Position numbers and translations under genes: made by a program. Shown in pieces: positions 13,286 to 28,945 of a DNA stretch of 64,000 nt. The stretch covers positions 30,561-94,560 of the forward strand of contig JASGUC010000004.1 in assembly GCA_030057915.1 (NCBI GenBank), given 5' to 3'. Within the stretch, counting starts at the first letter, position 1. Every line of letters begins with the position of its first letter. This stretch comes from Pseudomonadota bacterium. GTDB lineage: Bacteria > Desulfobacterota > Syntrophia > Syntrophales > UBA8958. The notes under the pieces are model-generated. The model saw only the letters and a program-made list of their open reading frames with translations, was not told the DNA's origin and did no database searches.

Positions 13286-13286
13286 G

Positions 13287-14994: not shown

Positions 14995-16439
14995 ATGTTC
15001 CGGAAACGACGGCAAGGTGGACTTGCCTATCTGAACATGAAGTTGCATCCCTCTTACGGGAAGTGGAGCTTAAGTATGACTTGTTTCGACATGAAGTGGA
15101 TGGCTACAGTGCCTGGCGACTACTGAGATTCTGGTTTGCCGATAGCCTGCAAAATCTTCCCCTTCAAGGCGCTCTTCCAAAGTGGCGTCTTTTTGGATGG
15201 TTAGCCTACCATTGTATAAGAGATCTGCAAAAATTCATTTTTCCCAAGCAAGCGCGTTATGTTGTAAAGACATGTGCGTCCGCCCTCAATGAAAAACGGG
15301 ATGGCTACTGGAAGGACATCTACTTCGACGATATCCTCGAAGAGATTGGCAATTGCTTCAAAATGGATGTCCTCAACAGCCCCCTTTTCTTTGGGAGGCG
15401 TAAACGCGCCCTTATCCCGATATCCGTATCAACTTCTCTGCCCGATCTTATTTCTTCCCTTCTTGCTGCCATCGGGATCCCCAAAGGTATTTCGCAAGTT
15501 ACCCGCGCCATAAAGAAAGATTTGTCATTTACTCCGGGTTTGCCTCCGTTCAACGACGTTGCCGCTGCCTTCCGTTTGCGCCGTTTCTACTGGGCAAAAC
15601 GACTTTATCGATGGCTGCTCAAGCGCGTAAATCCAAGATATGTGTTGTATGAGGATACCGGATCATTTTCCCTGTGTGCGGCGGCGCAGGAACTGGGCAT
15701 CAAGGCCATAGAGTTTCAACATGGCGTTTTCGGTCGGCACCACCCCGCTGTGCTGCCTGCCTGGGCATTGCCGTATAAAGAGAAACTCATCGTTCAGGAC
15801 AAATTATTTCTATATGGTGAATACTGGAAATCAGAAATCGCCGCCAACGGGTTTTACGGAGATGAACTGTGCGCCGTTGGTAGCGCCAGGTTGGATCGAT
15901 ATCGGATTAAAAGGAAAGAATGCAAGTCAAAAGACAAGCTCGGCGGGCCATGCAAGCTTCTCGTTACCACTCAGGGGTTTGCCCTTTACGAACTTGTCGG
16001 CATGCTTTCCCGCTTTCTTTCCCTGGTTCCTAAGGAATTGGATTACCGATTGTTCATCAAACTTCACCCAATCAATGAGCGGGATGTTTACGTCTATGAA
16101 ACGCTTTATCGTGGCAATGACCGTGTCAAGGTATTTTTGGGTACGGAATCGCCTTCTACGTTCGATCTACTTGCCGAGGCGGATTTGCATCTCAGCATAT
16201 CCTCGGCCTGTCATTATGATGCCCTGGGCTTGGGAGTGCCTACCGTCGTACTGGCCCTGCCAAATCATGAAATTGTTATGCATCTGGTTGTTTCCCGCCA
16301 GGCGAGAATCGCGGCAACTCCCGAAGAGATTATTGATATTGTTAAGGAATGCCGTAGTATAACTGTCCCTCCGGATGTCAGCGCCTCTTATTTTCTTCCG
16401 GAGGCCTTGCCAAGAATAAAGGCGGAACTTGCCGTCTGA
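14991..16439 (+). CDS. Hypothetical protein, possible GT-B-like or capsule-type transferase
   Basis: 482 aa with a GTG start overlapping the upstream stop (GTGA). C-terminal KLHPINERD...ADLHLSISSACHYDALGLGVPTVVL resembles the nucleotide-sugar-binding half of GT-B enzymes and of ORFs 5880 and 9428. Confidence 0.5.
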   Translation: MNVPETTARWTCLSEHEVASLLREVELKYDLFRHEVDGYSAWRLLRFWFADSLQNLPLQGALPKWRLFGWLAYHCIRDLQKFIFPKQARYVVKTCASALNEKRDGYWKDIYFDDILEEIGNCFKMDVLNSPLFFGRRKRALIPISVSTSLPDLISSLLAAIGIPKGISQVTRAIKKDLSFTPGLPPFNDVAAAFRLRRFYWAKRLYRWLLKRVNPRYVLYEDTGSFSLCAAAQELGIKAIEFQHGVFGRHHPAVLPAWALPYKEKLIVQDKLFLYGEYWKSEIAANGFYGDELCAVGSARLDRYRIKRKECKSKDKLGGPCKLLVTTQGFALYELVGMLSRFLSLVPKELDYRLFIKLHPINERDVYVYETLYRGNDRVKVFLGTESPSTFDLLAEADLHLSISSACHYDALGLGVPTVVLALPNHEIVMHLVVSRQARIAATPEEIIDIVKECRSITVPPDVSASYFLPEALPRIKAELAV

Positions 16440-16454
16440 TTTGTCTATGGGAAT

Positions 16455-17720
16455 ATGCATATCTGGGTCATAACGGTTGGAGAGCCGGTACCAGTAGATG
16501 TGAACAGTCGTGATCGCCCGCACCGGACCGGCTTGCTAACCAGAAGCCTGGAAAGACGGGGGATAAGAACAACCTGGTGGACATCGTCTTTCGATCACTT
16601 TCGCAAGAAGCATCTAGCATCGGACCATTCCCTTATCAAGCTCGGACCGCTGTTGACCATAAGAATGCTCCGCGGATGCGGATATAGTACAAATATATCC
16701 CTGTCGCGATTGAGGGACCACCGTCAACTTGCCGTTCACTTCGCCCGAGAAGCGGAAAACTCGGAGCCGCCAGGGGTCATCATCTCCGCCTGGCCCACGA
16801 TCGAATTGAGCACTGCGGCGGTGCAATACGGCAAGAGGCACAATGTTCCCGTCATTCTCGACATGAGAGACATGTGGCCGGATATATTCATTGAATCGTT
16901 GCCACCAGGTTTCCGCTATCCAGGGAAGATATTGCTGAAGAGGTTGTTCCGGGAAGCCTCGCGTACCTGTGCTGCTGCCGCCGCTGTTACGGGTATTACG
17001 GATGCGTTCGTTGACTGGGGAGTAAGGAAGGCAGGAAGAAAGAGAACAGTCCGGGATATTTCTTTCCCCATGGGTTATCCCAAAGAGGACTTTTCCAAAG
17101 ATGAAATAAGGGAAGCGGAATCATTTTGGGACGATTTAGGTATCTACGCCGGGAAGGGATTCGTTGCATGTTTTTTGGGGAGCTTCGGGAGACAACTGGA
17201 TGTTGAATGCCTGATCCAGGCTGCGCGCATCCTTAAGAACCGGAGGCGGTCCATAAAATTTGTTCTCTGCGGAGCCGGCGACTATCTGGAAAGGTATCGA
17301 CGGATGGCGGACGATGTTCCCGAGGTCATTTTCCCGGGGTGGATAGACGCCGCGACAATGCATGTTCTGATGCGGCGGTCATCCGTTGGATTGGACCCTC
17401 TGCCGAACCGCTACGATTTCCTCGCGACTATAAACAACAAGGCTATTGAATATATGAGTGCAGGGCTGCCAGTGATTTCCAGTCCCCGAAATGGTGTGTT
17501 GCATGACTTGTTGAAAAGAAAAGCCTGTGGCGCCGGATATGCTTCCGGAAATGCCGAGGAATTGGCAACCCTATTGAGTGCTATCAGAGACTCACCTGAC
17601 CAACTGAAAACATGGTCGCGCAATGCCGCGGCACTTTTTGAAGAAACATTTGTTGCGGAAAAGGTTTACGATCGGATGTCCGCATATTTGGAGGACTTTG
17701 CAACATCGGTGAATCCTTGA
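16455..17720 (+). CDS. Glycosyltransferase family 4 (GT-B, Glycos_transf_1-type)
   Basis: N-terminal MHIWVITVGEPVP and a C-terminal FPGWID...NNKAIEYMSAGLPVISS EX7E-like region. Confidence 0.8.
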   Translation: MHIWVITVGEPVPVDVNSRDRPHRTGLLTRSLERRGIRTTWWTSSFDHFRKKHLASDHSLIKLGPLLTIRMLRGCGYSTNISLSRLRDHRQLAVHFAREAENSEPPGVIISAWPTIELSTAAVQYGKRHNVPVILDMRDMWPDIFIESLPPGFRYPGKILLKRLFREASRTCAAAAAVTGITDAFVDWGVRKAGRKRTVRDISFPMGYPKEDFSKDEIREAESFWDDLGIYAGKGFVACFLGSFGRQLDVECLIQAARILKNRRRSIKFVLCGAGDYLERYRRMADDVPEVIFPGWIDAATMHVLMRRSSVGLDPLPNRYDFLATINNKAIEYMSAGLPVISSPRNGVLHDLLKRKACGAGYASGNAEELATLLSAIRDSPDQLKTWSRNAAALFEETFVAEKVYDRMSAYLEDFATSVNP

Positions 17721-17759: not shown

Positions 17760-18419
17760 GTGAAAAGATTGTTCGACATATGTGTTTCCTTGGGCGGCCT
17801 CTTGCTTTTAAGTCCAATGATTGCCGCTGTTGCCTCGATTATTAGAAAAGACGGCGGCCCCGTTTTCTACCGGGGGGAACGAACTGGCCTGTATGGGAAG
17901 CCCTTTAGGATTTACAAGTTCCGCACGATGGTCGTCGATGCGGAGAAGGTCGGCGGCGCTTCCACGGCGGATGACGACGCCCGCATTACCTCCGTCGGCA
18001 AATTTCTTCGTAAATACAAGCTTGACGAGACGCCCCAACTCATCAACGTCCTCAAGGGGGAGATGAGCATCGTCGGGCCCAGACCGGAGGTGAAGCGTTA
18101 TACGGACATGTTTTCCGATGAGGAAAAGGCCATCTTGACGGTCCGCCCCGGGATCACCGATTGGGCCTCCATCTGGAACGCCGACGAGGGGGCCGTTCTG
18201 GCGGGCGCGGCGGATCCCGATCTTGCCTACCTGGAGCTTATCCGGCCAATGAAATTGAAATTGCAGTTGAAGTATGTTAGGGAGCGTTCTTTCTGGGTGG
18301 ATCTGAAGATCATCTTCCTGACCCTGCTGGCGGTCGTTCAACCGGAAAGCCAGGCGGTGCGGGAGATGAGAAGGGGGCATGAGATGACGATTGCCACGGG
18401 CGTTGAGGGGAAGAGGTGA
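17760..18419 (+). CDS. Small monotopic phosphoglycosyl transferase (PglC/WbaP C-terminal-type bacterial sugar transferase)
   Basis: KRLFDICVSLGGLLLLSPMIAAVASIIRKDGGPVFYRGERTGLYGKPFRIYKFRTM and DETPQLINVLKGEMSIVGPRP hallmarks. GTG start. Confidence 0.9.
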   Translation: MKRLFDICVSLGGLLLLSPMIAAVASIIRKDGGPVFYRGERTGLYGKPFRIYKFRTMVVDAEKVGGASTADDDARITSVGKFLRKYKLDETPQLINVLKGEMSIVGPRPEVKRYTDMFSDEEKAILTVRPGITDWASIWNADEGAVLAGAADPDLAYLELIRPMKLKLQLKYVRERSFWVDLKIIFLTLLAVVQPESQAVREMRRGHEMTIATGVEGKR

Positions 18420-19393
18420 AATACAGGCGCGAACTCCTGAAGGAGCTTTACCTTCGCATGCTGCGGATTCGCCTTTGTGAGGAAGCCTTTGTGGAACCCA
18501 TCCTCACCGGTGAGGTCCGCTGTCCCTGCCATCTGTACAGCGGCGAGGAAGGGGTCGCCGTGGGTGTCTGCGCGGCCCTGACGGAACGGGATTACGTCTT
18601 CGGCAATCATCGTTCCCATGGCCATTACCTTGCCAAGGGCGGGTCGCTACCGGAGATGGTGGCGGAGATTTACTGTCGTGAGAACGGCTGTTCCCGGGGC
18701 CGGGGCGGTTCCATGCACCTCATCGCCCCGGAGGCGGGCATGCTGGGGGCGGCGCCGATCGTCGCGGGGACGGTCTCCCTGGCCCTGGGCGCCGCCCTGG
18801 CGTCGGCCATCAGGAGGGATGGCCGGGTGGCCGTGAGCTTTTTCGGCGACGGGGCCACGGGCGAGGGGGCGCTTCACGAAAGCATGAATTTTGCCGCCCT
18901 GAGGAAGCTGCCGATTATTTTCGCTTGCGAAAACAATTACTACGCCACTCACATGCCGGTCCGGGAATGTCGAGTCGATCGGCATATCTTTGAGATCGCG
19001 ACGCCCTTCGGCATCGAAAGCCGGCAGGTGGAGGGCAACGACGTCCTGGCCGTTTATGACGCCGCAACCGCGGCGGTGGAGAAGTGCCGTCAGGGCGCCG
19101 GTCCCGTATTTCTCGAATTTCTGACCTATCGTTACCGGGGGCATGTGGGCCCGGACGACAATATCCAGGGGGAGCATACGGATATCCGTCCTCCGGAGGA
19201 AATCGACGCCTGGATGAAAAAGGACCCCCTGGCGCTGCTTGGCGACTATCTTCTGGCACAGGGGCTTTTTTCTCCCGGGGAATTGGACGGCATAAGGACG
19301 GAAGTCGAGGCGGAGGTAAGAGAGGCGTTCATTTTTGCCAGGGCCAGCGCCCACCCCAAGACAGAGGAATTGGAGAGATATGTCTTCGCATAG
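18416..19393 (+). CDS. TPP-dependent 2-oxoacid dehydrogenase/decarboxylase E1 component, alpha subunit
   Basis: TPP motif FFGDGATGEGALHESMNFAALRKLPIIFACENNYYA. The GTG start overlaps the transferase stop (GTGA). Confidence 0.88.
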   Translation: MKYRRELLKELYLRMLRIRLCEEAFVEPILTGEVRCPCHLYSGEEGVAVGVCAALTERDYVFGNHRSHGHYLAKGGSLPEMVAEIYCRENGCSRGRGGSMHLIAPEAGMLGAAPIVAGTVSLALGAALASAIRRDGRVAVSFFGDGATGEGALHESMNFAALRKLPIIFACENNYYATHMPVRECRVDRHIFEIATPFGIESRQVEGNDVLAVYDAATAAVEKCRQGAGPVFLEFLTYRYRGHVGPDDNIQGEHTDIRPPEEIDAWMKKDPLALLGDYLLAQGLFSPGELDGIRTEVEAEVREAFIFARASAHPKTEELERYVFA

Positions 19394-20360
19394 GATCCTC
19401 AGTTACAGCCTGGCGATAAATGAAGCCCTCCATCAGACGATGGCGGCAGACCCCGCGGTATTCCTCATCGGCCAGGGGGTGAAGAGCCCCTGGTATGTGG
19501 GCAACACCGCCCAGGGCCTGCGGGAGCGTTTCGGCGACGAACGGGTCATCGACACGCCCGTGTCCGAAAACGCCATGACCGGCGCCGCGGTCGGGGCGGC
19601 CCTGGCGGGGATGCGGCCCGTCGTTGTCCATCCCCGCATGGATTTCATGTTTTACGCCTTCGACCCCATCGTCAACGAGGCGGCGAACTGGCATTACATG
19701 AACGGCGGCCGACTCCCCGTCCCCGTCGTCTTCTGGGGGATCATCAACCGGGGCGGCGAGCAGGCGGCCCAGCATTCCCAGGCCCTGCATGGCATGTTCG
19801 CCCATGTGCCGGGGCTTAAAGTCGTCATGCCGGCCTCTCCCTACGATGCCAAGGGTTTGATGGTGGCGGCGATCCAGGACCGGAATCCGGTGGTCTTCAT
19901 CGACGACCGCTGGCTTTATCGACTGGAAGAACCGGTGCCGGAGGAAATCTATGCCGTGGAGATCGGCCGGGCCCGCATTGCCCGGGTGGGCGCGGATGTC
20001 ACCATAACCGCTTCGTCGTTTATGGTCCGGGAGGCCCTCCAGGCGGCGGAACTGCTGGCGGAGGAGGGAGTGGCGGCGGAGGTCGTCGATCTCCGCACGA
20101 TAAAGCCCCTGGACGAAGCAGCCCTGCTGGCTTCGGTGAGGAAGACCGGCCGCCTTGTCGTCGCCGACGGCGGCTGGCGGTCCTTTGGCGCGGCGGCGGA
20201 GATTGCCGCCCTCGCGGCGGAGCGGGCCTTCGATTCCTTGCGGGCCCCCGTGGTTCGGGTCGCCCTGCCCGATTGCCCGGCCCCGGCCAGTGCCGTGCTG
20301 GAAAAGGCGTACTATCGCACCGGCGAGGACATCATCCGGGCCGTTCGGGGCATTCTCTGA
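19380..20360 (+). CDS. TPP-dependent E1 component, beta subunit (transketolase-like pyrimidine-binding and C-terminal domains)
   Basis: VIDTPVSENAMTGAAVGAALAGMRPVV and EVVDLRTIKPLDEAAL. Start trimmed to ATG 19380 (MSSHRILSY), which overlaps the alpha-subunit stop by 14 nt. Confidence 0.88.
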   Translation: MSSHRILSYSLAINEALHQTMAADPAVFLIGQGVKSPWYVGNTAQGLRERFGDERVIDTPVSENAMTGAAVGAALAGMRPVVVHPRMDFMFYAFDPIVNEAANWHYMNGGRLPVPVVFWGIINRGGEQAAQHSQALHGMFAHVPGLKVVMPASPYDAKGLMVAAIQDRNPVVFIDDRWLYRLEEPVPEEIYAVEIGRARIARVGADVTITASSFMVREALQAAELLAEEGVAAEVVDLRTIKPLDEAALLASVRKTGRLVVADGGWRSFGAAAEIAALAAERAFDSLRAPVVRVALPDCPAPASAVLEKAYYRTGEDIIRAVRGIL

Positions 20361-20382
20361 GGCCGCCATCGTTTCATGATGG

Positions 20383-20503
20383 GAGACCTTGGAAAAATGT
20401 CATTTCGAGGAGCGCGAGCGACGATAAATCCTAATCATGGCAGTTTGTTGAAGATTTCTCCCTTCGGTCGAAATGACGAAAATCGCGGATATTCAAAGCT
20501 CTC
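20383..20503 (+). mobile_element. 121-bp MITE (family 1), copy A
   Basis: Termini GAGACCTTGGAA...TTCAAAGCTCTC are inverted repeats. Internal palindrome GTCATTTCGA...TCGAAATGAC. Flanked by the 5-bp direct repeat GATGG. Near-identical to copies at 28946 and 32452. Confidence 0.85.
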
Positions 20504-20597
20504 GATGGCGAGATTCGGGTGAATCATTGGGGCCGATTGCAAAACCACCGGAAGGCGGCAGGAAAGCGTGGCTTTTCAAGGGGTTCGAGGTTGTCGA

Positions 20598-21947
20598 ATG
20601 GATAGAGAAGTGAAGTTTGTAGAGCCGGCCAAGCTCTACGGGATGATCAAGAAGGAATTGGACGAGGCCTATTTTGAGGTCATGGGCAAGGGCGATCTTA
20701 TCGACCGGGGGCAGTTGCGGCGGTTCGAGGAGAATCTGGCGGCCTTTGTGGGGACTAAATACGCCGTGGGCCTCAACAGCGGCTATGACGCCCTCCACAT
20801 GTCCCTGCGGGCGGCGGGGATCGGCCCCGGCGACGAGGTGGTCGTGCCGGCCCATACATTTGTGGCCACGGCCTCGGCGGTGGTCAATGTGGGCGCAAAG
20901 CCCGTTCTCGTCGATGTGGGGAAGGATTTCAACATCGACTGCGACCGGGTTGAGGAACTCCTGGCGGCGGCGGACCGGGATGGCGGAAGACGGATCAAGG
21001 CCATAATCCCCGTCCATCTCAGCGGCTACATGGCGGATATGGGGCGGATCATGGAGCTGGCGGAGCGATACGGTCTCGTGGTCGTCGAGGATGCCTGTCA
21101 GAGCCTCGGGGCCGGCATGGAAAGGACGCCCGCCGCCGCTTCGCAACCGCCGGCGGAAGGGGACGGGGGGGAGGAGGCGGACGCACGTCGTAAGGCGAGG
21201 CGCGGGCGCGGGAAGTCGGCGGAGCGGAACGTCGATCTTTTTGCAGAAGAAGGGGCGGGCGCCACGCGGCTTGCGGCCATCGCTCCGCGGACCACCGCCC
21301 CTCGCCCGGATGCGCCGGCGCCGGAGGCAATCGGTCCCGCCTGGGTCAAGGCCGGCGCCTGGGGCCTGACGGGCTGCTGGAGCTTTTATCCCTTCAAGAT
21401 CCTCGGCGGTTACGGCGACGGCGGGGCCATCACCACCAACGATCCCGAGGTAGCCCTGTTTGCCACCCGGATGCGCTACAACGGCGAAGACCGGCAGACC
21501 GGGGAATACCACGGGCACGGCTTCACCTGCCTGCTCGACAACCTGCAGGCGGCCTTTCTCGATGTGAAGCTGCGCTATCTCCCCCAGTGGATCACCCGAC
21601 GTCAGGGCATCGCCGCACGGTACCGCGCCGCCCTGTCCGATCTTCCCGATCTCCTCCTCCCCCATTACGACGATCCCCGCCGGGATCATGTCTATCAGAA
21701 CTATACGGTGCGCTCCCGGCAGGGGAACGATTTTTCTCAGTATCTCAAGTCCCGGGGCGTCGAGGTGCTTACCCAGTTCCGGAAGCCCTATTACCGTCAC
21801 GAGGCGCTCAAACTGGAGGATCGGGGCTTCCCCGAAACGGAGGCCCTGAGCCGGGAGGTCTGCTCCCTGCCCATGAACGTGGAGATCGCCGACGAAGAGG
21901 TGGATTATGTCATCTCCGTGGTCCGCTCGTTTTACGGGAAGACTTGA
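20598..21947 (+). CDS. DegT/DnrJ/EryC1-family PLP sugar aminotransferase carrying a ~77-80 aa low-complexity insertion
   Basis: Motifs GLNSGYDALHMSL, GDEVVVPAHTF, VVVEDACQSLGAG, and CWSFYPFKILGGYGDGGAITTND with the PLP lysine. Start trimmed to ATG 20598. Confidence 0.85.
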   Translation: MDREVKFVEPAKLYGMIKKELDEAYFEVMGKGDLIDRGQLRRFEENLAAFVGTKYAVGLNSGYDALHMSLRAAGIGPGDEVVVPAHTFVATASAVVNVGAKPVLVDVGKDFNIDCDRVEELLAAADRDGGRRIKAIIPVHLSGYMADMGRIMELAERYGLVVVEDACQSLGAGMERTPAAASQPPAEGDGGEEADARRKARRGRGKSAERNVDLFAEEGAGATRLAAIAPRTTAPRPDAPAPEAIGPAWVKAGAWGLTGCWSFYPFKILGGYGDGGAITTNDPEVALFATRMRYNGEDRQTGEYHGHGFTCLLDNLQAAFLDVKLRYLPQWITRRQGIAARYRAALSDLPDLLLPHYDDPRRDHVYQNYTVRSRQGNDFSQYLKSRGVEVLTQFRKPYYRHEALKLEDRGFPETEALSREVCSLPMNVEIADEEVDYVISVVRSFYGKT

Positions 21948-22013
21948 GCCCTCCTGACGATGAAGGCCGGAGAGGCCCATAAAGGCGCTGGCCCCGTAAG
22001 AGGTCTTCCCCCC

Positions 22014-22145
22014 GAGACCTTGGAAAATCAGCGCCTTTCGGTCGTCCAGGCAAAACCCGGGGGGCGGGACGCCTGGAAAACACTGAACCCCGGCTTCCGC
22101 CGGCATGGCCTTGAGGTGTCTGACGAGGCATTTTTCAAAGGTCTC
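22014..22145. repeat. ~132-bp terminus-sharing repeat element (MITE-like)
   Basis: Begins GAGACCTTGGAAAATC and ends TTTTTCAAAGGTCTC (inverted termini). Flanked by CCCCC on both sides. Confidence 0.6.
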
Positions 22146-22375
22146 CCCCCGGCATGGGGACGAGCCGAAATCCACCACGTCCGGATCAAGCCGGAGGGTG
22201 GTCTTCCCCCCGGGCATGGGGACGAGCCGCTGATGCCAAGCGATTCGGCCTTTTGGGCGGCGGTCTTCCCCCGGCCTGGGGATGGCCCTGTCGTGCGCGT
22301 TTGGCATGGGGGTCAGAGAAGGGCCGCAGGATTGGCAGCGGATGGCCCCGTCGCGTGCGTTTGGCATCCTGTCCC
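22140..22375. repeat. Degenerate direct repeats in a non-coding spacer
   Basis: GGTCT(T)CCCCCCGG(G)CATGGGGACGAGCCG at about 22140 and 22200, with a degenerate copy at about 22262. GATGGCCCYGTCG(Y)GYGCGTTTGGCAT at about 22281 and 22341. Confidence 0.6.
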
Positions 22376-22532
22376 GAGACCTTGGAAAAACTGTCTCACA
22401 CGTCATGCCGAGCCCCGTATCGTGGTACGGGGCAGGCCCGACCCGGCATCCGGGAAATAGCTGAAAACACTGGATTCCTGCTTACGCGGGAATGGCAATA
22501 TTGAGGCGGGAACGGAGTTTTTCAAAGGTCTC
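22376..22532. repeat. ~157-bp terminus-sharing repeat element
   Basis: Begins GAGACCTTGGAAAAAC and ends TTTTTCAAAGGTCTC. The interior contains a CTGGATTCCTGCTTACGCGGGAATGG-type hairpin module. Confidence 0.6.
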
Positions 22533-22540
22533 ACCGGGAT

Positions 22541-22672
22541 GAGACCTTTGATAATCCACGTTTTCCTTTCGCCCCGGTAAAATCCGGGGTCGGGAACGCC
22601 TTGAAAACACGATATTTTGGCTGCCTCGGGGATGACGAGGGGGACTGGGAAACGGCATTTTTCAAAGGTATC
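22541..22672. repeat. ~132-bp terminus-sharing repeat element
   Basis: Begins GAGACCTTTGATAATC and ends TTTTTCAAAGGTATC. With the previous element it forms the palindrome TCAAAGGTCTCA-ccggga-TGAGACCTTTGA. Confidence 0.6.
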
Positions 22673-22691
22673 GTCCGATAAGCGAGGTTGA

Positions 22692-23852
22692 ATGAATTTA
22701 CGATTGAGTGAACGTCAGGCGTGGGTGCTCCAGTCGGAGATCCGCAATATGTCCATCGAATGCGACCGCCGGGGCGGGATCAACCTCTCCCAGGGCGTCT
22801 GCGACACGGAGGTCCCGGCGGTGGTCCGCCGGGGCGCCCGGGAGGCGATGGATCAGGGGATAAACACCTATACCCGTTACGACGGCCTGGCGGAACTGCG
22901 TCAGGCCATTGCGGACAAACAGCGCCGCTTCACCGGGATGGCCTTCGACCCCGAGGGGGAGATCGTCGTCAGCGCCGGCGCCACGGGGGCCCTGTACTGC
23001 GCCTGCCTGGCCCTTTTGAATCCCGGCGATGAGGTCATCGTCTTCGAACCCTTCTACGGCTACCACATCAGCACCTTGGTCGCTGCGGGGACGACGCCGG
23101 TTTATGTCCCCCTGGGCCCTCCGGACTGGTCCTTCAGCGGGGAGGAACTGGAGCGGGCCTGGACCCCCCGCGTCCGGGCGATCATCGTCAACACCCCCGC
23201 CAACCCTTCGGGAAAGGTCTTCACCCTCGAGGAGCTGCATGCCATCGCCGCCTTTGCCGTCCAGCGCGACCTGTTTGTCTTTACCGACGAGATCTACGAG
23301 CATTTTCTCTACGACGGCAGTCGCCATGTCCCGCCGGCCCTCCTGCCGGGGATGAGGGAGCGGACGATCACGATCTCGGGGCTCTCCAAGACCTTCAGCA
23401 TCACCGGCTGGCGGGTGGGCTACGCCCTGGGCGATGCCCGCTGGATGCAGACCATCGGCCATTTCAACGATCTTGTGTATGTATGCGCCCCGGCGCCCCT
23501 GCAGATCGGGGTGGCCCGGGGTCTCGACGCCCTGGGCGACGATTATTACGAAGATCTGGCCCGACAGTACCTCGTCAAGCGGGACATGATCTGCCGGGCC
23601 CTTGCCGATGCGGGTATGCCGCCCCTCGTTCCCCGGGGGGCCTATTATGTCCTGGCGGATGTCTCTCGGCTCCCGGGGACGACCAGCAAGGAGCGGGCCA
23701 TGTTCCTCCTGGAGAAAACCGGCGTGGCCGCCGTCCCCGGCAGCGCCTTCTATCATGACGAAGGCGGCGAGGGCCTGGCCCGTTTCTGTTTTGCCAAGGA
23801 CGACCCGGTCCTCGCCGAGGCGGCGGACCGACTCCGGACCATAAATGAATAA
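22692..23852 (+). CDS. Class I/II PLP-dependent (amino acid:2-oxoacid) aminotransferase
   Basis: Motifs NLSQGVCD, IVNTPANPSGKVF, and LSKTFSITGWRVGY with the PLP lysine. Confidence 0.85.
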   Translation: MNLRLSERQAWVLQSEIRNMSIECDRRGGINLSQGVCDTEVPAVVRRGAREAMDQGINTYTRYDGLAELRQAIADKQRRFTGMAFDPEGEIVVSAGATGALYCACLALLNPGDEVIVFEPFYGYHISTLVAAGTTPVYVPLGPPDWSFSGEELERAWTPRVRAIIVNTPANPSGKVFTLEELHAIAAFAVQRDLFVFTDEIYEHFLYDGSRHVPPALLPGMRERTITISGLSKTFSITGWRVGYALGDARWMQTIGHFNDLVYVCAPAPLQIGVARGLDALGDDYYEDLARQYLVKRDMICRALADAGMPPLVPRGAYYVLADVSRLPGTTSKERAMFLLEKTGVAAVPGSAFYHDEGGEGLARFCFAKDDPVLAEAADRLRTINE

Positions 23853-25692
23853 GCTGATTCAAAACAAGCATTTCTATTATATGATCCTCATCGATGCCGC
23901 CCTTGTGGCGGCATCCTACATCTGTGCCTATCTCCTCCGCTACGAAGGACGTCTGCCGGACCAGGAATGGCAACAGATCGTCCGGGTCCTGCCCTTTCTG
24001 GCGCCGATGAAACTGATCTGCTTTTCCCTCTTCGGCCTCTACCGGGGGATGTGGCGCTACACCAGCATCGAGGACTTGAAAAGGGTCCTCAAGGCGACGA
24101 CCGCTTCTTCCGCGCTCCTTGCCCTGGCCGTCCTGTACGTCCATCATTTTCAGGGCTACTCCCGGGCGGCCTTCATCATCGACTGGCTTCTCACCCTCCT
24201 TGGCATCGGCGGCGCCCGGATCGGCGTCCGGTTGCTGTTGACGAACAATATGTCCTCCTTCTGGCTGCTGGCCAAAAAAGGGGCCAAGGAAAAGCGCCTC
24301 CTCATCATCGGCGCCGGCGCCGCGGGGGAAAAGGCCGTCCGGGAGATACTGGAGAACCCGGGCTTGAAACTCAATCCCGTGGGCTTCCTCGATGACGATC
24401 CCTTCAAGCAGGGGAAGGCAATCCACGGGGTCCTCATCCTGGGGACGGTGGATGACATGGGCGGCTTGCGGGAGGACTTCGACGAGATCCTCATCGCCAT
24501 CCCCTCGGCCCGGGGGGAGCAGATGCGCCGCATTGTCGCTGCCTGTGAAGAGACGGGCAAGCGTTTCCGCACCATGCCGAGCCTCGGCGAGTTGATCGAT
24601 GGCAAGGTTTCCGTCAAGGCCCTCAGGGAGGTCCGGATCGAGGATATCCTGGGCCGGGACGAGGTGCGTCTCGAAAAAGAGCTTCTAAAAAGATCCTATG
24701 CGGGGAAACGGATTCTGATCACCGGGGCCGGGGGCTCCATCGGAAGCGAACTGGTCCGGCAGGCATGCCAGTATCGCCCCGCCGTCGTCGGTCTTCTGGA
24801 TTTCAGCGAATTCAATCTCTTCCAGATCGAGATGACCCAGCGCCAGTTTTTCCCGGACATCCCCTTTGTCTCCTATCTGACGGACATTCGCGATCTGCCG
24901 GCGGTTCGGAAAACCATCGAGGACTTCCGTCCCGAGATAATTTTTCACGCAGCGGCGTACAAGCATGTCCCGCTTCAGGAGCTGCATCCCCGGGAAACGG
25001 TTTACAACAACGTCCGGGGCACGCGAAACCTTGCCCTGACCGCTTCGGAGGCAGGCGTGGAAAGATTTGTCCTGGTCTCCACGGACAAGGCGGTGCGTCC
25101 CACGAACGTCATGGGAGCGGCCAAACGGGTGGCGGAGATGTTGCTGGCCTCCCTGACCGGCCGGACGGGAACCAATTTCGTCTCTGTGCGTTTTGGCAAT
25201 GTCCTCGGAAGTTCCGGGTCCGTGATCCCGATCTTTCAGCAGCAGATCAGCCAGGGAAAACCGGTGACGGTCACCCACCCGGAGGTCACCCGTTATTTCA
25301 TGAGCATCCCCGAGGCGGCCCAGTTGATCCTCCAGGCCGGGGCCATGGGGCGGGGCGGCGAGATCTTCATCCTCGATATGGGAAAGCCGGTGAAGATCGT
25401 CGATATGGCCCGGGAAGTGATACGCTTGCACGGTTTCGAGCCGGAACGGGATATCCCCATCGAATACATAGGCCTGCGTCCCGGGGAGAAGCTCTTCGAA
25501 GAATTGATCACGGTGGGGGAGGGGATCATGCCTACGTCCCACGAAAAGATCAAGGTTATCAGGGGGAACCAGGGGGATTTTCAGCTTCTCAACGACCAGA
25601 TCGACGCCCTGATCGCCGTGGCCGACTCCTACGACGACAGGGCCATCAAGGAGCAGCTCCAAGCCATCGTTCCCGAATACGTCCCCCAATGA
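23845..25692 (+). CDS. Membrane-bound polysaccharide biosynthesis protein CapD/PglF/WbpM-type (UDP-HexNAc 4,6-dehydratase family)
   Basis: N-terminal TM helices, then ILITGAGGSIGSEL, IFHAAAYKHVPLQE, VLVSTDKAVRPTNVMGAAKRVAE and RFGNVLGSSGSVIPIF. Confidence 0.9.
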   Translation: MNKLIQNKHFYYMILIDAALVAASYICAYLLRYEGRLPDQEWQQIVRVLPFLAPMKLICFSLFGLYRGMWRYTSIEDLKRVLKATTASSALLALAVLYVHHFQGYSRAAFIIDWLLTLLGIGGARIGVRLLLTNNMSSFWLLAKKGAKEKRLLIIGAGAAGEKAVREILENPGLKLNPVGFLDDDPFKQGKAIHGVLILGTVDDMGGLREDFDEILIAIPSARGEQMRRIVAACEETGKRFRTMPSLGELIDGKVSVKALREVRIEDILGRDEVRLEKELLKRSYAGKRILITGAGGSIGSELVRQACQYRPAVVGLLDFSEFNLFQIEMTQRQFFPDIPFVSYLTDIRDLPAVRKTIEDFRPEIIFHAAAYKHVPLQELHPRETVYNNVRGTRNLALTASEAGVERFVLVSTDKAVRPTNVMGAAKRVAEMLLASLTGRTGTNFVSVRFGNVLGSSGSVIPIFQQQISQGKPVTVTHPEVTRYFMSIPEAAQLILQAGAMGRGGEIFILDMGKPVKIVDMAREVIRLHGFEPERDIPIEYIGLRPGEKLFEELITVGEGIMPTSHEKIKVIRGNQGDFQLLNDQIDALIAVADSYDDRAIKEQLQAIVPEYVPQ

Positions 25693-26816
25693 TCGTCGGC
25701 GAAGCATTTAGGTTGCCGGACCGGGTCCGGAAGGTCCTGATCATTCAACTGGGGGATATCGGCGACGTCGTCTGGGCGCTCCCCACCTTCCGGGCGGTGG
25801 GCGCCGCCCTGCCCCGGGCGGAGATCTTTCTTCTGGTCCGGGAGGGGATAGGGGCCCTTTTTGAGGCCGACCCGGTCGTCGCGGGGGTTTTCGAGGTCGA
25901 GAGATTCGCCGGCGATATCGCCGGGCGTCTCCGCCGGCAGGCCGCTTTTCTCCTCCGGGTCCGCAAGGCCCGCTTCGATCTGGTCTTCGATCTGCGGTGC
26001 GACGAACGGGGGGCCTTTATGGCCCGATGGACGGGCGCCCCGTTTCGGGCCTCGCTGGTGGCGACGGACAGCCCCTGGTTCCGGAACCGTCTCTTCACCC
26101 ACCTGGTCTATCCTCCCGATGAAAACGTCCGCGTCCGTCTGGGGGCCAGCGAGCAGACCCTGCGGATCGTCAGGCAATTCGGCATCCCTACCCCCGAAGC
26201 CATCCCCACGCTCACCATTTCCCCGGCGGCGAGGGAGAAAATGAAGGCCGCCCTTGCCGCCCGAGACATCCCCGCCCTCGGCTTCATCACCATGAATCCC
26301 TTTTCCCGCTGGACCTACAAGGAATGGCCGTCCGACCGCTGGCCGGAAATTGCCTCCCGGCTGTTCCGGGAATACGGCCTGCCCGCAGTCCTGGTCGGAT
26401 CTGCGGGGGAGCGTGCCCGGGCCGGGGAGCTGGCGAAGGCCGCCGACGGAGGAATGGTCAACATGACTGGGGAAACGACCCTGGGGGAGCTGGCGGCCCT
26501 GTTGAGTCTCAGCCGTCTCCACATCGGCGTGGACAGCGCCGCCCCCCATGTCGCCGCCGCCGTGGGCACGCCGACCATAACCATCTACGGCCCCTCGGAC
26601 TGGCGGGACTGGGCCCCCGTGGGCGAGGGCCACCAGGTGGTCGTCTCGGACATGGCTTGTTCGCCCTGCCACCGGAAGGGATGCGATGGCCGGGGATGGA
26701 GCCGCTGCCTCGAGAACATCCCCGCCGAGAAGGTCTGGGCGGCGATGGAACAGGCGTTGCGACCCCTGAAAAATGATGCCTTCCCGTCGCCCCGGCGGAC
26801 TTTCCACACCCTATAA
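25689..26816 (+). CDS. Glycosyltransferase family 9 (LPS heptosyltransferase-like)
   Basis: KVLIIQLGDIGDVVWALPTFRAV and LHIGVDSAAPHVAAAVGTPTITIYGPSD. Only the last 375 codons of track ORF 24765-26816 are real. ATG 25689 overlaps the capD stop. Confidence 0.85.
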   Translation: MIVGEAFRLPDRVRKVLIIQLGDIGDVVWALPTFRAVGAALPRAEIFLLVREGIGALFEADPVVAGVFEVERFAGDIAGRLRRQAAFLLRVRKARFDLVFDLRCDERGAFMARWTGAPFRASLVATDSPWFRNRLFTHLVYPPDENVRVRLGASEQTLRIVRQFGIPTPEAIPTLTISPAAREKMKAALAARDIPALGFITMNPFSRWTYKEWPSDRWPEIASRLFREYGLPAVLVGSAGERARAGELAKAADGGMVNMTGETTLGELAALLSLSRLHIGVDSAAPHVAAAVGTPTITIYGPSDWRDWAPVGEGHQVVVSDMACSPCHRKGCDGRGWSRCLENIPAEKVWAAMEQALRPLKNDAFPSPRRTFHTL

Positions 26817-28308: not shown

Positions 28309-28336
28309 GGCGACAGGGTGTCGGAGCAGGGGTTTT

Positions 28337-28927
28337 TCAAGGGTCTCCCTCCCTTCTGGCCAGGATCCAGCGGACGGCGGCGAGGATGTCCGGGGCGATA
28401 TGATCCGGAGTCACTGCGCCGAGGTCCGCGTTTTGGCCGTAACCGGTGCGGACGAGAATGCCCTTGCCCCCCGCCCGCTGTCCCGCCTCCACGTCCTTGG
28501 GCATATCGCCGATCATGTAGGAGCGGGACAGGTCGATGGCCAGCTCCGCCGCGGCCCGCAGCAGCATCCCTGGCGCGGGTTTCCGGCAGGGGCAGGATTG
28601 CCGGTATCCACCGATGCCCTCCGTCGGATGGTGGGGACAGAAATAATAACCATCGATGGCGGCCCCTTCTTTTCGTAACCTGCGCGACATCTCCGCATGC
28701 ACCTCCATCACGAAGGCCTCGTCAAACATCCCTCTCCCGATGCCGGACTGGTTGGTGATGACCACGGCTTTCATCCCGTCCCGATTGATGAGCCGCACGG
28801 CCTCGGCGGCGCCGGGAAGGAGACGGAGCTTGTCCATCCGGTCCAGATAGCCCACTTCCTCGTTGATCGTGCCGTCCCGATCCAGAAAGACGGCGGGGGA
28901 GGGCCTCATTGGCTTGAGTGTTCTCAT
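28337..28927 (-). CDS. gmhB: D-glycero-D-manno-heptose 1,7-bisphosphate phosphatase (HAD-IIIA)
   Basis: Motifs FLDRDGTIN, VVITNQSGIGRG, CPHHP...CPCRKPAPGML (Zn site) and IGDMPKDVEAG. Start trimmed to ATG 28927, because the upstream part of the track ORF reads into a MITE. Confidence 0.88.
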   Translation of the reverse strand: MRTLKPMRPSPAVFLDRDGTINEEVGYLDRMDKLRLLPGAAEAVRLINRDGMKAVVITNQSGIGRGMFDEAFVMEVHAEMSRRLRKEGAAIDGYYFCPHHPTEGIGGYRQSCPCRKPAPGMLLRAAAELAIDLSRSYMIGDMPKDVEAGQRAGGKGILVRTGYGQNADLGAVTPDHIAPDILAAVRWILARREGDP

Positions 28928-28945
28928 GGGTTTCACTTTATTGTC

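What the first reader, a model, noticed from the sequence alone, without database searches (positions are those of the whole stretch)
17760..25692. TPP-dependent E1 alpha/beta pair translationally coupled to the initiating phosphoglycosyl transferase: candidate sugar C-branching or acylation module
The E1-alpha GTG overlaps the PglC-like transferase stop (GTGA), and E1-beta overlaps E1-alpha. No E2 (lipoyl) or E3 gene follows. Instead the next genes are a DegT sugar aminotransferase, a class I amino acid:2-oxoacid aminotransferase and a CapD/PglF-type 4,6-dehydratase. The E1 pair is therefore unlikely to be a stray pyruvate or acetoin dehydrogenase.
Established precedent, from memory: PDH-E1 alpha/beta homologs in deoxysugar clusters (AviB1/AviB2 in avilamycin) were proposed to attach a two-carbon branch to a keto-sugar, and the TPP enzyme YerE does this for yersiniose.
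Inference: the class I aminotransferase supplies a 2-oxoacid, E1 alpha/beta generates the TPP-bound acyl-anion equivalent, and this attacks the 4-keto intermediate made by the CapD-like dehydratase. The product would be a branched or unusually acylated amino sugar used as the first, lipid-linked residue. The set PglF-like + PglE-like + PglC-like without a PglD-type acetyltransferase fits a modified bacillosamine-type route.
Basis: partly seen in the sequence, partly recalled or inferred. Interest (0 to 1): 0.65.

Follow-up and report, generated by a model that had tools for sequence, protein, structure and literature searches.

The report
Thiamine enzyme module for branched LPS sugar
A pyruvate-dehydrogenase-like enzyme pair sits in a conserved six-gene set in the lipopolysaccharide locus of an anaerobic-digester bacterium (Syntrophales), and most likely adds a two-carbon, then aminated, branch to the first lipid-linked sugar, which would move a reaction known from antibiotic sugars into cell-surface glycans of many phyla.

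Summary
On the + strand lie a PglC-like phosphoglycosyl transferase, E1 alpha (GTGA overlap), E1 beta (14-nt overlap), a DegT aminotransferase, a class I aminotransferase and a CapD/PglF 4,6-dehydratase. No E2, E3 or PglD-type acetyltransferase was found among the predicted proteins scanned across the 64-kb window.

The order PglC-E1ab-DegT-(class I AT)-CapD recurs in 19 other loci, from Syntrophales, Bacteroidales, Patescibacteria, Nitrospiraceae, Acidobacteria, Planctomycetia and Bdellovibrionota.

Three results tie the parts together:
- E1 beta is fused to DegT in one genome.
- DegT is fused to the class I aminotransferase in two genomes.
- In three loci a split transketolase replaces E1ab in the same slot, twice fused to DegT.

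The chemistry the two thiamine enzymes share is transfer of a C2 carbanion to a carbonyl.

Best reading: CapD makes UDP-4-keto-6-deoxy-HexNAc, E1ab adds an acetyl branch from pyruvate, and DegT aminates the branch ketone, as in amycolose of kibdelomycin. The class I aminotransferase feeds pyruvate and glutamate, and PglC loads the sugar on undecaprenyl phosphate.

All of this rests on genomic context and has no biochemical support. I rate it a new variant of a known kind: E1-type sugar branching was so far tied to actinomycete antibiotics.

The parts
16455..17720 (+). GT4-family glycosyltransferase. Context gene and variable neighbour, not part of the conserved module.
   Evidence: Glycos_transf_1 / Glyco_trans_1_4. 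Conserved only in L001 (86%) and weakly in L003, L005 and L017.
17760..18419 (+). Small monotopic phosphoglycosyl transferase (PglC-like, 219 aa). Predicted to load the finished UDP-sugar onto undecaprenyl phosphate.
   Evidence: PF02397 7e-62 over the whole protein. The sequence shows LDETPQL (Asp-Glu dyad) and GPRP motifs. Adjacent to E1ab in 19 other loci.
18416..19393 (+). E1 alpha subunit (ThDP-binding, 325 aa). The GTG start overlaps the PglC stop as GTGA.
   Evidence: PF00676 2e-69. Scores 305 bits against TIGR03182, whose cut-off is 394. GDG...ENN ThDP motif present, and 37% identity to human PDHA1. Start position conserved in L001 and L084.
19380..20360 (+). E1 beta subunit (326 aa from ATG 19380). 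Overlaps E1 alpha by 14 nt.
   Evidence: PF02779 plus PF02780. 42% identity to human PDHB. The ThDP-activating Glu (TPVSEN) and the AQHSQ His are conserved. Junction sequence.
20361..20597 (.). Intergenic spacer holding copies of two dispersed repeats. No gene.
   Evidence: Repeat motifs at 20383 and 20399. Logan contigs break here, with word depth 447-14087x against about 9-14x in the flanks.
20598..21947 (+). DegT-family sugar aminotransferase (449 aa). The catalytic Lys is retained (SFYPFKILGGYGDGG). It has a 78-aa low-complexity insert at nt 21114-21348. Predicted to aminate the branch ketone.
   Evidence: PF01041 1e-84 in two stretches. Best PDB relatives are 7b0d, DesV, QdtB and WbpE. 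Lys versus His census. Insert shown, and confirmed by independent contigs.
21948..22691 (.). Intergenic region filled with tandem and inverted copies of the dispersed repeat TTTTCAAAGGTCTC. No gene, and no Rfam family above its cut-off.
   Evidence: The gap is about 390 bp in L001 and absent in L002.
22692..23852 (+). Class I (fold type I, KAT/AroAT-like) alpha-amino acid:2-oxoacid aminotransferase (386 aa). Predicted accessory enzyme that couples the 2-oxoacid donor and the amino donor.
   Evidence: PF00155 8e-64. Below every NCBIfam equivalog cut-off. Best PDB relatives are P. horikoshii AroAT/AspAT, Mtb DapC, KAT3 and YbdL. Fused to DegT in L081 and L085.
23845..25692 (+). Membrane-anchored CapD/PglF/WbpM-type UDP-HexNAc 4,6-dehydratase (615 aa). 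Predicted source of the 4-keto acceptor.
   Evidence: PF02719 1e-110 and PF13727. STDKA catalytic motif visible in the sequence. Follows the aminotransferases in L001-3, L017 and L081-85.
25689..26816 (+). GT9 heptosyltransferase-like gene. Its ATG overlaps the CapD stop (ATGA). It links the module to the LPS core and lipid A gene region.
   Evidence: PF01075 2e-33. Overlap shown. The same neighbour occurs in L001, L002, L081, L082 and L084.

Best explanation
The six genes form one pathway that builds an unusual first sugar of the LPS O-chain or adaptor on undecaprenyl phosphate.

Proposed steps:
1. The CapD/PglF-type enzyme converts UDP-GlcNAc to UDP-2-acetamido-2,6-dideoxy-hexos-4-ulose. This follows from family membership.
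2. The E1 alpha2beta2 enzyme, working without E2 or E3, decarboxylates pyruvate to hydroxyethylidene-ThDP and adds it to the C4 ketone. The product carries a 4-C-acetyl branch on a tertiary alcohol. This is inferred from context, and the chemistry matches the alphaKADH2 enzymes of antibiotic sugar pathways.
3. The Lys-containing DegT transaminates the new branch ketone to give a 4-C-(1-aminoethyl) sugar. This is inferred by analogy with amycolose in kibdelomycin.
4. The class I aminotransferase is an accessory enzyme. It converts an amino acid (alanine in the simplest case) plus 2-oxoglutarate into the 2-oxoacid donor for E1 and the glutamate donor for DegT. The net reaction is then keto-sugar + alanine -> aminoethyl-branched sugar + CO2. 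This is the most speculative step.
5. PglC transfers the sugar 1-phosphate to undecaprenyl phosphate.

In relatives where a split transketolase replaces E1ab, the branch would be hydroxyacetyl instead of acetyl.
For: Anatomy:
- Domain assignments and overlapping start/stop codons link PglC/E1a, E1a/E1b, AT/CapD and CapD/GT9.

No dehydrogenase partners:
- No E2 or E3 gene was found among the proteins scanned in the window, nor next to E1ab in 80 + 8 related loci.
- E1 alpha scores below the PDH equivalog cut-offs.

Conserved module:
- PglC-E1a-E1b-DegT(-AT)(-CapD) occurs in 19 loci from at least 7 high-level lineages.

Fusions:
- E1beta~DegT: P0121 in L007.
- TktC~DegT: P0326 in L087 and P0123 in L088.
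- DegT~class I AT: L081, and P0241 in L085.

Non-orthologous displacement:
- A split transketolase occupies the E1ab slot in L085, L087 and L088.
- The chemistry E1 and transketolase share is transfer of a C2-ThDP carbanion to a carbonyl.

Wider clade:
- More distant E1ab relatives sit with NDP-sugar genes. SDR dehydratases occur in 41 of 80 loci, along with GHMP or HldE kinases and nucleotidyltransferases.
- In 22 cases they sit beside His-for-Lys, ColD/RfbH-like 3-dehydratases. That is the acceptor-making logic of yersiniose.

Literature:
- E1-type alphaKADH2 enzymes add C2 branches to keto sugars. KbDH-alpha/beta was tested in vitro and uses only pyruvate as donor. The branch ketone is transaminated in kibdelomycin (PMC12247030).
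- Amycolose is an alpha-aminoethyl-branched sugar (PMC10055692).

Chemical logic:
- CapD gives only one ketone. If DegT used it first, E1 would have no acceptor.
Against: - There is no biochemical or structural-chemistry evidence. No LPS sugar with a C-(1-aminoethyl) branch turned up in the literature searched.
- The E1 subunits keep all PDH catalytic residues, including the two His used for reductive acylation. Sequence alone therefore does not exclude a dehydrogenase-type reaction with an unlinked E2.
- I could not place the E1 subunits in a tree with KbDH, AviB1/B2 or Pau11/12, because no reference sequences were available here.
- DegT enzymes normally act on ring ketones. Amination of an exocyclic ketone by this DegT is assumed, not shown.
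- The E1beta~DegT fusion rests on one MAG contig.
- The class I aminotransferase is missing from L007, L047, L048 and L087, so it is not essential, and its substrate is unknown.
- The search for related loci selects by shared peptides, so the 80 loci are not an unbiased sample of E1 relatives.
Confidence: 0.5

Rival explanations
1. Variant bacillosamine or AATGal route. DegT acts as a PglE-like C4 aminotransferase on the CapD product. The thiamine enzyme, with the class I aminotransferase, makes or attaches the substituent of the 4-amino group and so replaces the missing PglD acetyltransferase.
For: The set PglF-like + DegT + PglC-like without any acetyltransferase looks like a Pgl pathway with one step swapped. 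Small PglC-type transferases typically use 4-N-substituted 2,4-diamino-2,4,6-trideoxyhexoses (established knowledge).
Against: N-acylation from hydroxyethyl-ThDP needs a two-electron oxidant, which an E1 without lipoyl-E2 or a flavin lacks. A split transketolase, which cannot make acetyl-ThDP from pyruvate, replaces E1ab in the same slot. The DegT's nearest solved relatives are DesV, QdtB and WbpE rather than PglE or PseC. No ligase or acyltransferase is present in any of the loci.
Confidence: 0.15
2. The thiamine enzyme acts on another substrate. It might build a small amino-alcohol or aminoketone substituent from 2-oxoacids and aldehydes, or extend or cleave a sugar chain. That product would later be attached to the glycan, so DegT and E1 would not share an intermediate on C4.
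For: E1/acetoin-type enzymes and transketolases both also accept aldehydes and cleave ketols (PMC12247030). Other context types of the clade carry radical SAM enzymes, heptose genes and extra thiamine enzymes, which shows chemical diversity.
Against: The module has no kinase, nucleotidyltransferase, ligase or phosphotransferase to attach a free small molecule. Fusion of the beta or C subunit to a nucleotide-sugar aminotransferase argues for a shared nucleotide-sugar intermediate. The only carbonyl that CapD provides is C4.
Confidence: 0.12
3. Co-product removal. DegT uses alanine (or glutamate via the class I aminotransferase) as amino donor, and E1ab simply decarboxylates the 2-oxoacid co-product. 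This pulls an unfavourable transamination forward in the absence of PglD.
For: It would explain the physical coupling of two aminotransferases with a 2-oxoacid decarboxylase. The same trick is used in transaminase biocatalysis (general knowledge).
Against: A transketolase does not decarboxylate pyruvate or 2-oxoglutarate, yet it substitutes for E1ab. The route would release a free aldehyde. In 22 related loci E1ab pairs with a dehydratase-type (His) DegT that does not transaminate.
Confidence: 0.05
4. Stray housekeeping pyruvate, acetoin or branched-chain 2-oxoacid dehydrogenase E1 that works with E2 and E3 encoded elsewhere and lies in the LPS locus by accident.
For: Best structural homologues are PDH E1 (1e-50 and 1e-73). 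The catalytic residues are intact. E1 beta passes the NCBIfam 'subfamily' PDH-beta cut-off (340.7 against 321).
Against: The same position between PglC and DegT is kept across phyla. Start and stop codons overlap those of the sugar genes. Fusions to DegT exist. No E2/E3 lies next to any of about 88 loci. E1 alpha is below the equivalog cut-offs. The host lineage is a strictly anaerobic syntroph from digesters.
Confidence: 0.03

Closest known systems
alphaKADH2-type (E1 alpha/beta) sugar C-branching enzymes of actinomycete antibiotics: KbDH-alpha/beta (kibdelomycin/amycolose), AlmDI/DII (aldgamycin), Pau11/12 or Plm8/9 (paulomycin), AviB1/B2 (avilamycin)
   Same: - Two-subunit PDH-E1-like ThDP enzyme without E2 or E3.
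- Encoded among NDP-sugar 4,6-dehydratase and aminotransferase genes.
- Pyruvate-derived C2 unit added to a keto sugar.
- In kibdelomycin the branch ketone is then transaminated to an alpha-aminoethyl group (PMC12247030, PMC10055692).
   Different: - Here the module lies in an LPS O-antigen/core locus of Gram-negative anaerobes and other phyla, not in a secondary-metabolite cluster.
- The acceptor would be a UDP-HexNAc-derived 4-ketone, not a dTDP-deoxyhexose.
- The module is tied to the initiating PglC-type transferase.
- It carries a class I amino acid aminotransferase that is sometimes fused to DegT.
- It is interchangeable with a split transketolase.
- Sequence relationship to KbDH and AviB was not tested.
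YerE/YerF pathway for yersiniose A, and YerE-like enzymes (ErwE, MygE, JanthE) in LPS
   Same: ThDP-dependent addition of an acyl-anion equivalent from a 2-oxoacid to the C4 ketone of a nucleotide-activated 6-deoxy-4-keto sugar destined for LPS.
   Different: - YerE is a single-chain decarboxylase/AHAS-type enzyme (PF02776/PF00205/PF02775), not an E1 alpha/beta pair.
- Its acceptor is CDP-3,6-dideoxy-4-keto-glucose.
- The branch is reduced by YerF, not aminated.
Campylobacter Pgl bacillosamine route (PglF, PglE, PglD, PglC), and the related AATGal route (WcfR/WcfS)
   Same: A membrane-bound UDP-GlcNAc 4,6-dehydratase, a DegT-family aminotransferase and a small monotopic phosphoglycosyl transferase make and load the first, lipid-linked sugar.
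   Different: - There is no PglD acetyltransferase.
- A thiamine enzyme and a class I aminotransferase are inserted.
- The DegT is not closest to PglE or PseC among solved structures.
Split-gene transketolases proposed for hydroxyacetyl branching in miharamycin and amipurimycin
   Same: In L085, L087 and L088 a split transketolase takes the place of E1ab next to, or fused with, the same DegT. A C2 ketol transfer to a keto sugar is the expected reaction.
   Different: The 13 previously predicted cases are reported to be all from Streptomycetes (PMC12247030, section 2.3). These loci are PglC-linked glycan loci of uncultured bacteria, and none has been characterised.

Membership tests
alphaKADH2-type sugar C-branching ThDP enzymes | Separate alpha (PF00676) and beta (PF02779 + PF02780) subunits of the 2-oxoacid dehydrogenase E1 fold | tested here: met
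   Pfam E-values 2e-69, 3e-35 and 2e-36. PDB best hits are PDH E1 alpha and beta.
alphaKADH2-type sugar C-branching ThDP enzymes | Intact ThDP site: GDG(X)nNN motif in alpha and the cofactor-activating Glu in beta | tested here: met
   FFGDGATGEG...FACENNYY in alpha and DTPVSEN in beta, aligned to human PDH E1.
alphaKADH2-type sugar C-branching ThDP enzymes | Encoded without E2/E3, inside a nucleotide-sugar pathway that supplies a keto sugar | tested here: met
   Window annotation. About 88 related loci.
alphaKADH2-type sugar C-branching ThDP enzymes | Phylogenetic grouping with KbDH, AviB1/B2, Pau11/12 or AlmDI/DII rather than with PDH, BCKDH or AcoAB | not tested
   No reference sequences of these enzymes were obtainable with the tools. 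Only indirect evidence is available: E1 alpha is below the PDH equivalog cut-offs.
alphaKADH2-type sugar C-branching ThDP enzymes | Catalyses pyruvate-to-ketone carboligation that gives a tertiary alpha-hydroxy ketone | not testable with these tools
   Needs enzymology.
Pyruvate, acetoin or branched-chain 2-oxoacid dehydrogenase complex E1 | Meets curated equivalog score for PDH E1 alpha and beta | tested here: not met
   Alpha: TIGR03182 305.5 against 393.85, and TIGR03181 208.8 against 411.35. Beta: equivalog NF008854 316.8 against 454. Beta passes only the subfamily model NF006667 (340.7 against 321).
Pyruvate, acetoin or branched-chain 2-oxoacid dehydrogenase complex E1 | Lipoyl-bearing E2 (and usually E3) encoded with it | tested here: not met
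   None found among the proteins scanned in the 64-kb window, and none flanking E1ab in the related loci. An unlinked E2 elsewhere in the genome cannot be excluded.
Pyruvate, acetoin or branched-chain 2-oxoacid dehydrogenase complex E1 | Active-site His pair used for reductive acylation of lipoamide | tested here: inconclusive
   Both His are conserved (YRYRGH in alpha, AQHSQ in beta). They also serve general acid/base roles, so they do not discriminate.
Pgl-type bacillosamine pathway | PglF-like membrane-bound UDP-GlcNAc 4,6-dehydratase | tested here: met
   PF02719 1e-110 with an N-terminal membrane/CoA_binding_3 region and the STDKA motif.
Pgl-type bacillosamine pathway | PglE-type C4 aminotransferase | tested here: inconclusive
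   The DegT family matches and the catalytic Lys is present. However, the best solved relatives are 7b0d, DesV, QdtB and WbpE, and PglE and PseC are absent from the hits at E <= 1e-25. The best NCBIfam hit is PseC at 185 bits, below its cut-off of 423.5.
Pgl-type bacillosamine pathway | PglD-type (left-handed beta-helix) N-acetyltransferase | tested here: not met
   No Hexapep or GNAT protein in the locus. The only Hexapep hit in the window is LpxD. None is present in L081-L087 either.
Pgl-type bacillosamine pathway | Small monotopic PglC-type phosphoglycosyl transferase | tested here: met
   PF02397 covers residues 2-193 of 219, and the DE dyad and PRP motif are present.
YerE-like ThDP carboligases (decarboxylase superfamily) | Single chain with TPP_enzyme_N/M/C domains | tested here: not met
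   The E1 subunits match PF00676, PF02779 and PF02780 instead. Genuine YerE/AHAS-type genes do occur beside E1ab in L041 and L072.

The most novel reading that the evidence does not exclude
A widespread pathway across phyla makes a class of cell-surface sugar not yet described: a UDP-HexNAc with a C-(1-aminoalkyl) branch at C4, used as the lipid-linked primer of LPS or glycan chains.

It would work by a closed 'amino-acid transplant'. The class I aminotransferase splits alanine (or serine in the transketolase variant) into a 2-oxoacid and a glutamate-borne amino group. The thiamine enzyme decarboxylates the 2-oxoacid and joins it to C4. DegT then returns the amino group to the same carbon. 2-Oxoglutarate and glutamate cycle within a sometimes fused three-enzyme assembly.
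Probability: 0.3. Interest if true: 0.8.

Novelty: new variant of a known kind. Interest (0 to 1): 0.62.

Why it matters
Thiamine-dependent C-branching of sugars by E1-type enzymes and split transketolases has been regarded as a speciality of actinomycete antibiotic pathways. LPS examples were all of the YerE type (PMC12247030).

If the reading is right:
- E1-type and transketolase-type branching enzymes are common in cell-envelope glycan loci of many uncultured phyla.
- They are wired directly to the initiating phosphoglycosyl transferase.
- They produce a cationic, aminoalkyl-branched primer sugar, which would affect surface charge, phage and immune recognition, and substrate rules for PglC-type transferases.

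It would also give biocatalysis new ketone-accepting carboligases, some naturally fused to a transaminase, for making chiral tertiary amino-alcohols. And it offers a clean test case, because E1 and transketolase are interchangeable in one slot.

Tried and rejected
- Literature searches for E1 or PDH genes in O-antigen or capsule clusters, for '1-aminoethyl' branched LPS sugars and for PDB entry 7B0D found nothing relevant. The key bioinformatic paper (Krug et al., Angew. Chem. 2024) is not held.
- An explicit phylogeny against AviB1/B2, KbDH and AcoA was not possible, because no reference sequences were available. I did not write any from memory.
- At first I counted 'DegT follows E1 beta in about 40 loci' as support for branch amination. 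Checking the catalytic residue showed that 22 of these are His-type, ColD-like dehydratases. That support therefore applies only to the PglC-linked type, while the His-type loci support C-branching by the yersiniose logic.
- P0123 first looked like a second E1beta~DegT fusion. BLAST showed it is a transketolase-C~DegT fusion.
- The 745-bp and 237-bp gaps were checked for hidden genes or RNAs. Only dispersed repeats and one sub-threshold Rfam hit (isrK, 25.7 against 50 bits) were found. The repeat does not fold better than shuffles.
- The long minus-strand ORFs over the module (for example 20493-22406) were treated as high-GC shadow ORFs, because every + strand gene has strong family matches.
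- Structure prediction was not run. The E1 catalytic residues are all conserved, so a model would not separate the hypotheses.

Full report
WHAT IS THERE

The window is a chromosomal segment of an uncultured Syntrophales bacterium. The closest genome records are Syntrophus/Syntrophales MAGs with 88-89% E1 alpha identity. The DNA occurs in anaerobic-digester and wastewater metagenomes.

Genes on the + strand:
- a GT4 glycosyltransferase, 16455-17720;
- a 219-aa PglC-type phosphoglycosyl transferase, 17760-18419 (Bac_transf 7e-62);
- E1 alpha, 18416-19393 (PF00676 2e-69), whose GTG overlaps the PglC stop as GTGA;
- E1 beta, most likely from ATG 19380 to 20360 (14-nt overlap);
- a DegT aminotransferase, 20598-21947;
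- a class I aminotransferase, 22692-23852;
- a 615-aa CapD/PglF-type 4,6-dehydratase, 23845-25692 (8-nt overlap);
- a GT9 heptosyltransferase from 25689 (ATGA overlap).

The E1 alpha start position is conserved in relatives: GTG in L001 and ATG in L084.

Two spacers, 20361-20597 and 21948-22691, contain no gene. They hold dispersed repeats. One motif occurs 15 times in the window against 0 expected, and a second occurs 3 times.

Independent metagenome contigs reproduce the genes, including the DegT insert, without differences.

WIDER CONTEXT IN THE WINDOW

Upstream, at 44-51% GC against 62% elsewhere, lie a Wzt C-terminal domain, a second DegT, methyltransferases including a sugar C-methyltransferase, a GDP-mannose 4,6-dehydratase, GFO/IDH/MocA oxidoreductases and glycosyltransferases.

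Downstream lie two GT9 genes, a lipid A acyltransferase, LpxK, an MsbA-like ABC protein, LpxB, LpxD and BamA.

The module therefore sits at the junction between a variable O-antigen region and the conserved lipid A/core region. No E2, E3, lipoyl protein or PglD-like acetyltransferase was found among the predicted proteins scanned across the window; the scan covered most ORFs of about 250 aa or more, and several smaller ORFs and the 2511-aa ORF were not checked.

IS THE E1 PAIR A DEHYDROGENASE COMPONENT?

By sequence it is a PDH-E1-like heterotetramer:
- 37% identity (alpha) and 42% identity (beta) to human PDH E1;
- the ThDP motif, the activating Glu and both active-site His are conserved.

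Sequence alone therefore does not decide the question. E1 alpha falls below both PDH equivalog cut-offs. E1 beta passes only a subfamily-level model.

Context decides. Eighty related genomic loci (39-89% identity) were fetched. None has an E2 or E3 gene beside E1ab. The recurrent neighbours are nucleotide-sugar genes:

| Neighbour family | Loci (of 80) |
|---|---|
| SDR dehydratases/epimerases | 41 |
| DegT-like proteins | 40 |
| HldE-like kinase/cytidylyltransferases | 22 |
| GHMP kinases | 16 |
| GmhA-like SIS isomerases | 15 |
| Nucleotidyltransferases | 10 |
| Radical SAM enzymes (SPASM type; B12-binding type) | 17; 13 |

One caveat applies. The locus finder selects by shared peptides, so this is not an unbiased sample of E1 relatives.

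THE CONSERVED MODULE

Nineteen loci besides the window carry a PglC-type gene next to E1ab: L001-L012, L017, L047, L048 and L081-L084. They come from Syntrophales, Bacteroidales, Patescibacteria, Nitrospiraceae, Acidobacteria, Planctomycetia and Bdellovibrionota.
- Where the contig continues, a Lys-type DegT follows E1 beta in 15 loci, or precedes E1 alpha in L047 and L048.
- The class I aminotransferase follows in 12 loci.
- CapD follows after that, often with GT9 next.
- A small SAM methyltransferase is an optional member. No acetyltransferase is ever present.

This DegT is very conserved, at 70-83% identity across many metagenomic clusters.

THREE RESULTS THAT LINK THE PARTS

1. In L007 a single 699-aa ORF encodes E1 beta fused to DegT.
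2. In L081 (758 aa) and L085 (770 aa, 57% identical) DegT is fused to the class I aminotransferase.
3. In L085, L087 and L088 the E1 pair is replaced in the same slot by a split transketolase (Transketolase_N 1e-43 to 4e-47, plus a pyr/C subunit).
   - In L087 and L088 the C subunit is fused to the same DegT.
   - So fusion of the thiamine enzyme to DegT arose independently in the E1 and transketolase lineages.

E1 and transketolase share one chemistry: forming a C2 carbanion on ThDP and delivering it to a carbonyl carbon. This argues against roles that need pyruvate oxidation (N-acetylation) or simple 2-oxoacid removal.

THE WIDER CLADE SUPPORTS BRANCHING

In 22 loci of a different context type (GHMP kinase-SDR-E1a-E1b-DegT-like-B12 radical SAM), the DegT-like protein has His in place of the catalytic Lys. 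That is the signature of ColD/RfbH-type PMP-dependent 3-dehydratases (established knowledge).

A 4,6-dehydratase, then a 3-dehydratase, then a thiamine enzyme is the logic of yersiniose biosynthesis. There YerE adds a pyruvate-derived acetyl group to CDP-3,6-dideoxy-4-keto-glucose (PMC9306805, PMC12247030). Some loci even carry a YerE/AHAS-type enzyme or a split transketolase beside E1ab.

MOST LIKELY MECHANISM

Shown:
- gene content, gene order, fusions and intact cofactor motifs;
- the catalytic Lys of DegT;
- the class I aminotransferase has the SKxxxxxGxRxGY Lys motif and the C-terminal carboxylate-binding Arg of alpha-amino-acid aminotransferases, and its nearest structures are broad-specificity AroAT, KAT and YbdL enzymes.

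Inferred:
- CapD makes the UDP-4-keto-6-deoxy-HexNAc.
- E1ab adds hydroxyethylidene-ThDP from pyruvate to C4.
- DegT aminates the new exocyclic ketone to a 4-C-(1-aminoethyl) group.
- PglC transfers the product to undecaprenyl phosphate.

The order E1 then DegT follows from stoichiometry, because CapD provides a single ketone. The precedent is amycolose of kibdelomycin. There an E1-type enzyme (KbDH-alpha/beta, pyruvate-specific in vitro) makes the branch, which is then transaminated to an alpha-aminoethyl group (PMC12247030; PMC10055692).

The DegT's closest solved relatives are DesV, QdtB and WbpE, not PglE or PseC. This is consistent with a non-PglE substrate.

The class I aminotransferase is dispensable, being absent in L007, L047, L048 and L087. 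I therefore read it as a supply enzyme. With alanine and 2-oxoglutarate it would give both pyruvate for E1 and glutamate for DegT, which would explain its fusion to DegT. This last step is the least secure.

RIVALS

- PglE-like C4 amination plus thiamine-dependent N-substitution: 0.15.
- Action on a different substrate: 0.12.
- Co-product removal: 0.05.
- Stray housekeeping E1: 0.03.

The reasons are given in the rival section. The transketolase displacement and the lack of any attaching enzyme weigh against the first three. Synteny and the fusions weigh against the last.

COMPARISON WITH WHAT IS KNOWN

The enzyme pair works like the alphaKADH2 sugar-branching enzymes of actinomycete antibiotics. 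It meets every feature of that group that could be tested. Phylogenetic grouping and activity were not testable.

It is not a YerE-type enzyme, and it fails the tests for a PDH-complex E1: equivalog scores, and E2/E3 partners. The locus resembles the Pgl bacillosamine route but lacks PglD.

The review states that YerE-like enzymes serve LPS, while transketolases and alphaKADH2 enzymes mainly serve antimicrobial natural products. It also states that the 13 predicted ketone-accepting split transketolases are all from Streptomycetes. On that basis the new elements are:
- the PglC-linked, UDP-HexNAc-based, cross-phylum LPS context;
- the aminotransferase fusions;
- the interchange of E1 and transketolase.

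I cannot exclude that the unavailable 2024 survey lists some such loci.

VERDICT

This is a new variant of a known kind. Interest is 0.62, limited by the complete absence of biochemical or structural-chemical evidence.

Noticed in passing
window 20380-20480, 21948-22691, also 28334-28986, 30189-30322, 32452-32492, 46214-47455: Two dispersed intergenic repeat motifs occur together at several sites. TTTTCAAAGGTCTC has 15 hits against 0 expected. GTCATTTCGAGGAGCGCGAGCGACG has 3 hits. In metagenome contigs the word depth at 20294-20647 is 447x, 655x and 14087x against about 9-14x in the flanks, and contigs break there. This is a very high-copy MITE/REP-like element. It does not fold better than shuffled sequence.
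   Followed up: partly
window 21114-21348 (inside DegT 20598-21947): There is an in-frame 78-aa Ala/Pro/Arg/Gly-rich insert (74.5% GC) just before the catalytic-Lys loop of the DegT. Independent contigs confirm it. It is present with variable length in Syntrophales and Smithella homologues (436-460 aa) and absent from Bacteroidales, Nitrospiraceae and other homologues (about 370-390 aa). Its function is unknown.
   Followed up: partly
L013-L080 (for example L036 11995-13215, L023 11971-13137, L057 11990-13177): In 22 loci the DegT-like gene right after E1 beta has His instead of the catalytic Lys (FSFYYAHH...), as in ColD/RfbH 3-dehydratases. It is usually followed by a B12-binding radical SAM gene. 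This looks like a second, yersiniose-like family of E1-branched 3,6-dideoxy sugars.
   Followed up: partly
L014, L020, L025-L027, L030, L039 and others: A third context type is GmhA-like SIS - HldE-like kinase/cytidylyltransferase - E1 alpha - E1 beta - radical SAM/SPASM, mostly in Gammaproteobacteria and Magnetococcales. It suggests thiamine-dependent modification of nucleotide-activated heptoses. In 9 loci, scattered across the non-PglC context types (L021, L040, L053, L058, L063, L064, L065, L076, L077), E1 alpha and beta are fused into one protein of about 690 aa.
   Followed up: no
L041 12808-14634, L072 12053-13837, L016 12042-12851: A YerE/AHAS-type thiamine enzyme (L041, L072) or a transketolase N subunit (L016) lies directly beside E1ab. 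These loci therefore carry two different thiamine carboligase types.
   Followed up: no
L086 100-2268 (P0245); P0332; P0346; P0251: Further fusions involve the module's enzymes: D-2-hydroxyacid dehydrogenase~class I aminotransferase (722 aa), DegT~SAM methyltransferase (663 aa), SDR~DegT (687 aa), and DegT with a Transketolase_N match (514 aa). The first hints that the aminotransferase's 2-oxoacid can also be made from a 2-hydroxyacid.
   Followed up: partly
window 1-17700: This is a low-GC (44-51%) O-antigen region beside a 62% GC genome. It holds a Wzt C-terminal carbohydrate-binding domain, a second DegT (1139-2263), an FkbM methyltransferase, a sugar C-methyltransferase (3202-4416), a GDP-mannose 4,6-dehydratase (4825-5874), two GFO/IDH/MocA oxidoreductases and several ORFs without any Pfam match. 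It is probably a horizontally acquired serotype-specific part that makes a C-methylated GDP-amino sugar.
   Followed up: partly
window 20591-20740, 23173-23322, 25563-25799: Short contigs from a wastewater metatranscriptome run (X17) match DegT, the class I aminotransferase and the CapD/GT9 junction at low depth. This is weak evidence that the module is transcribed in situ. DNA carry-over cannot be excluded.
   Followed up: no
window 52126-59661: A 2511-aa ORF lies downstream of a cohesin-domain protein (49093-51462). It was not analysed.
   Followed up: no
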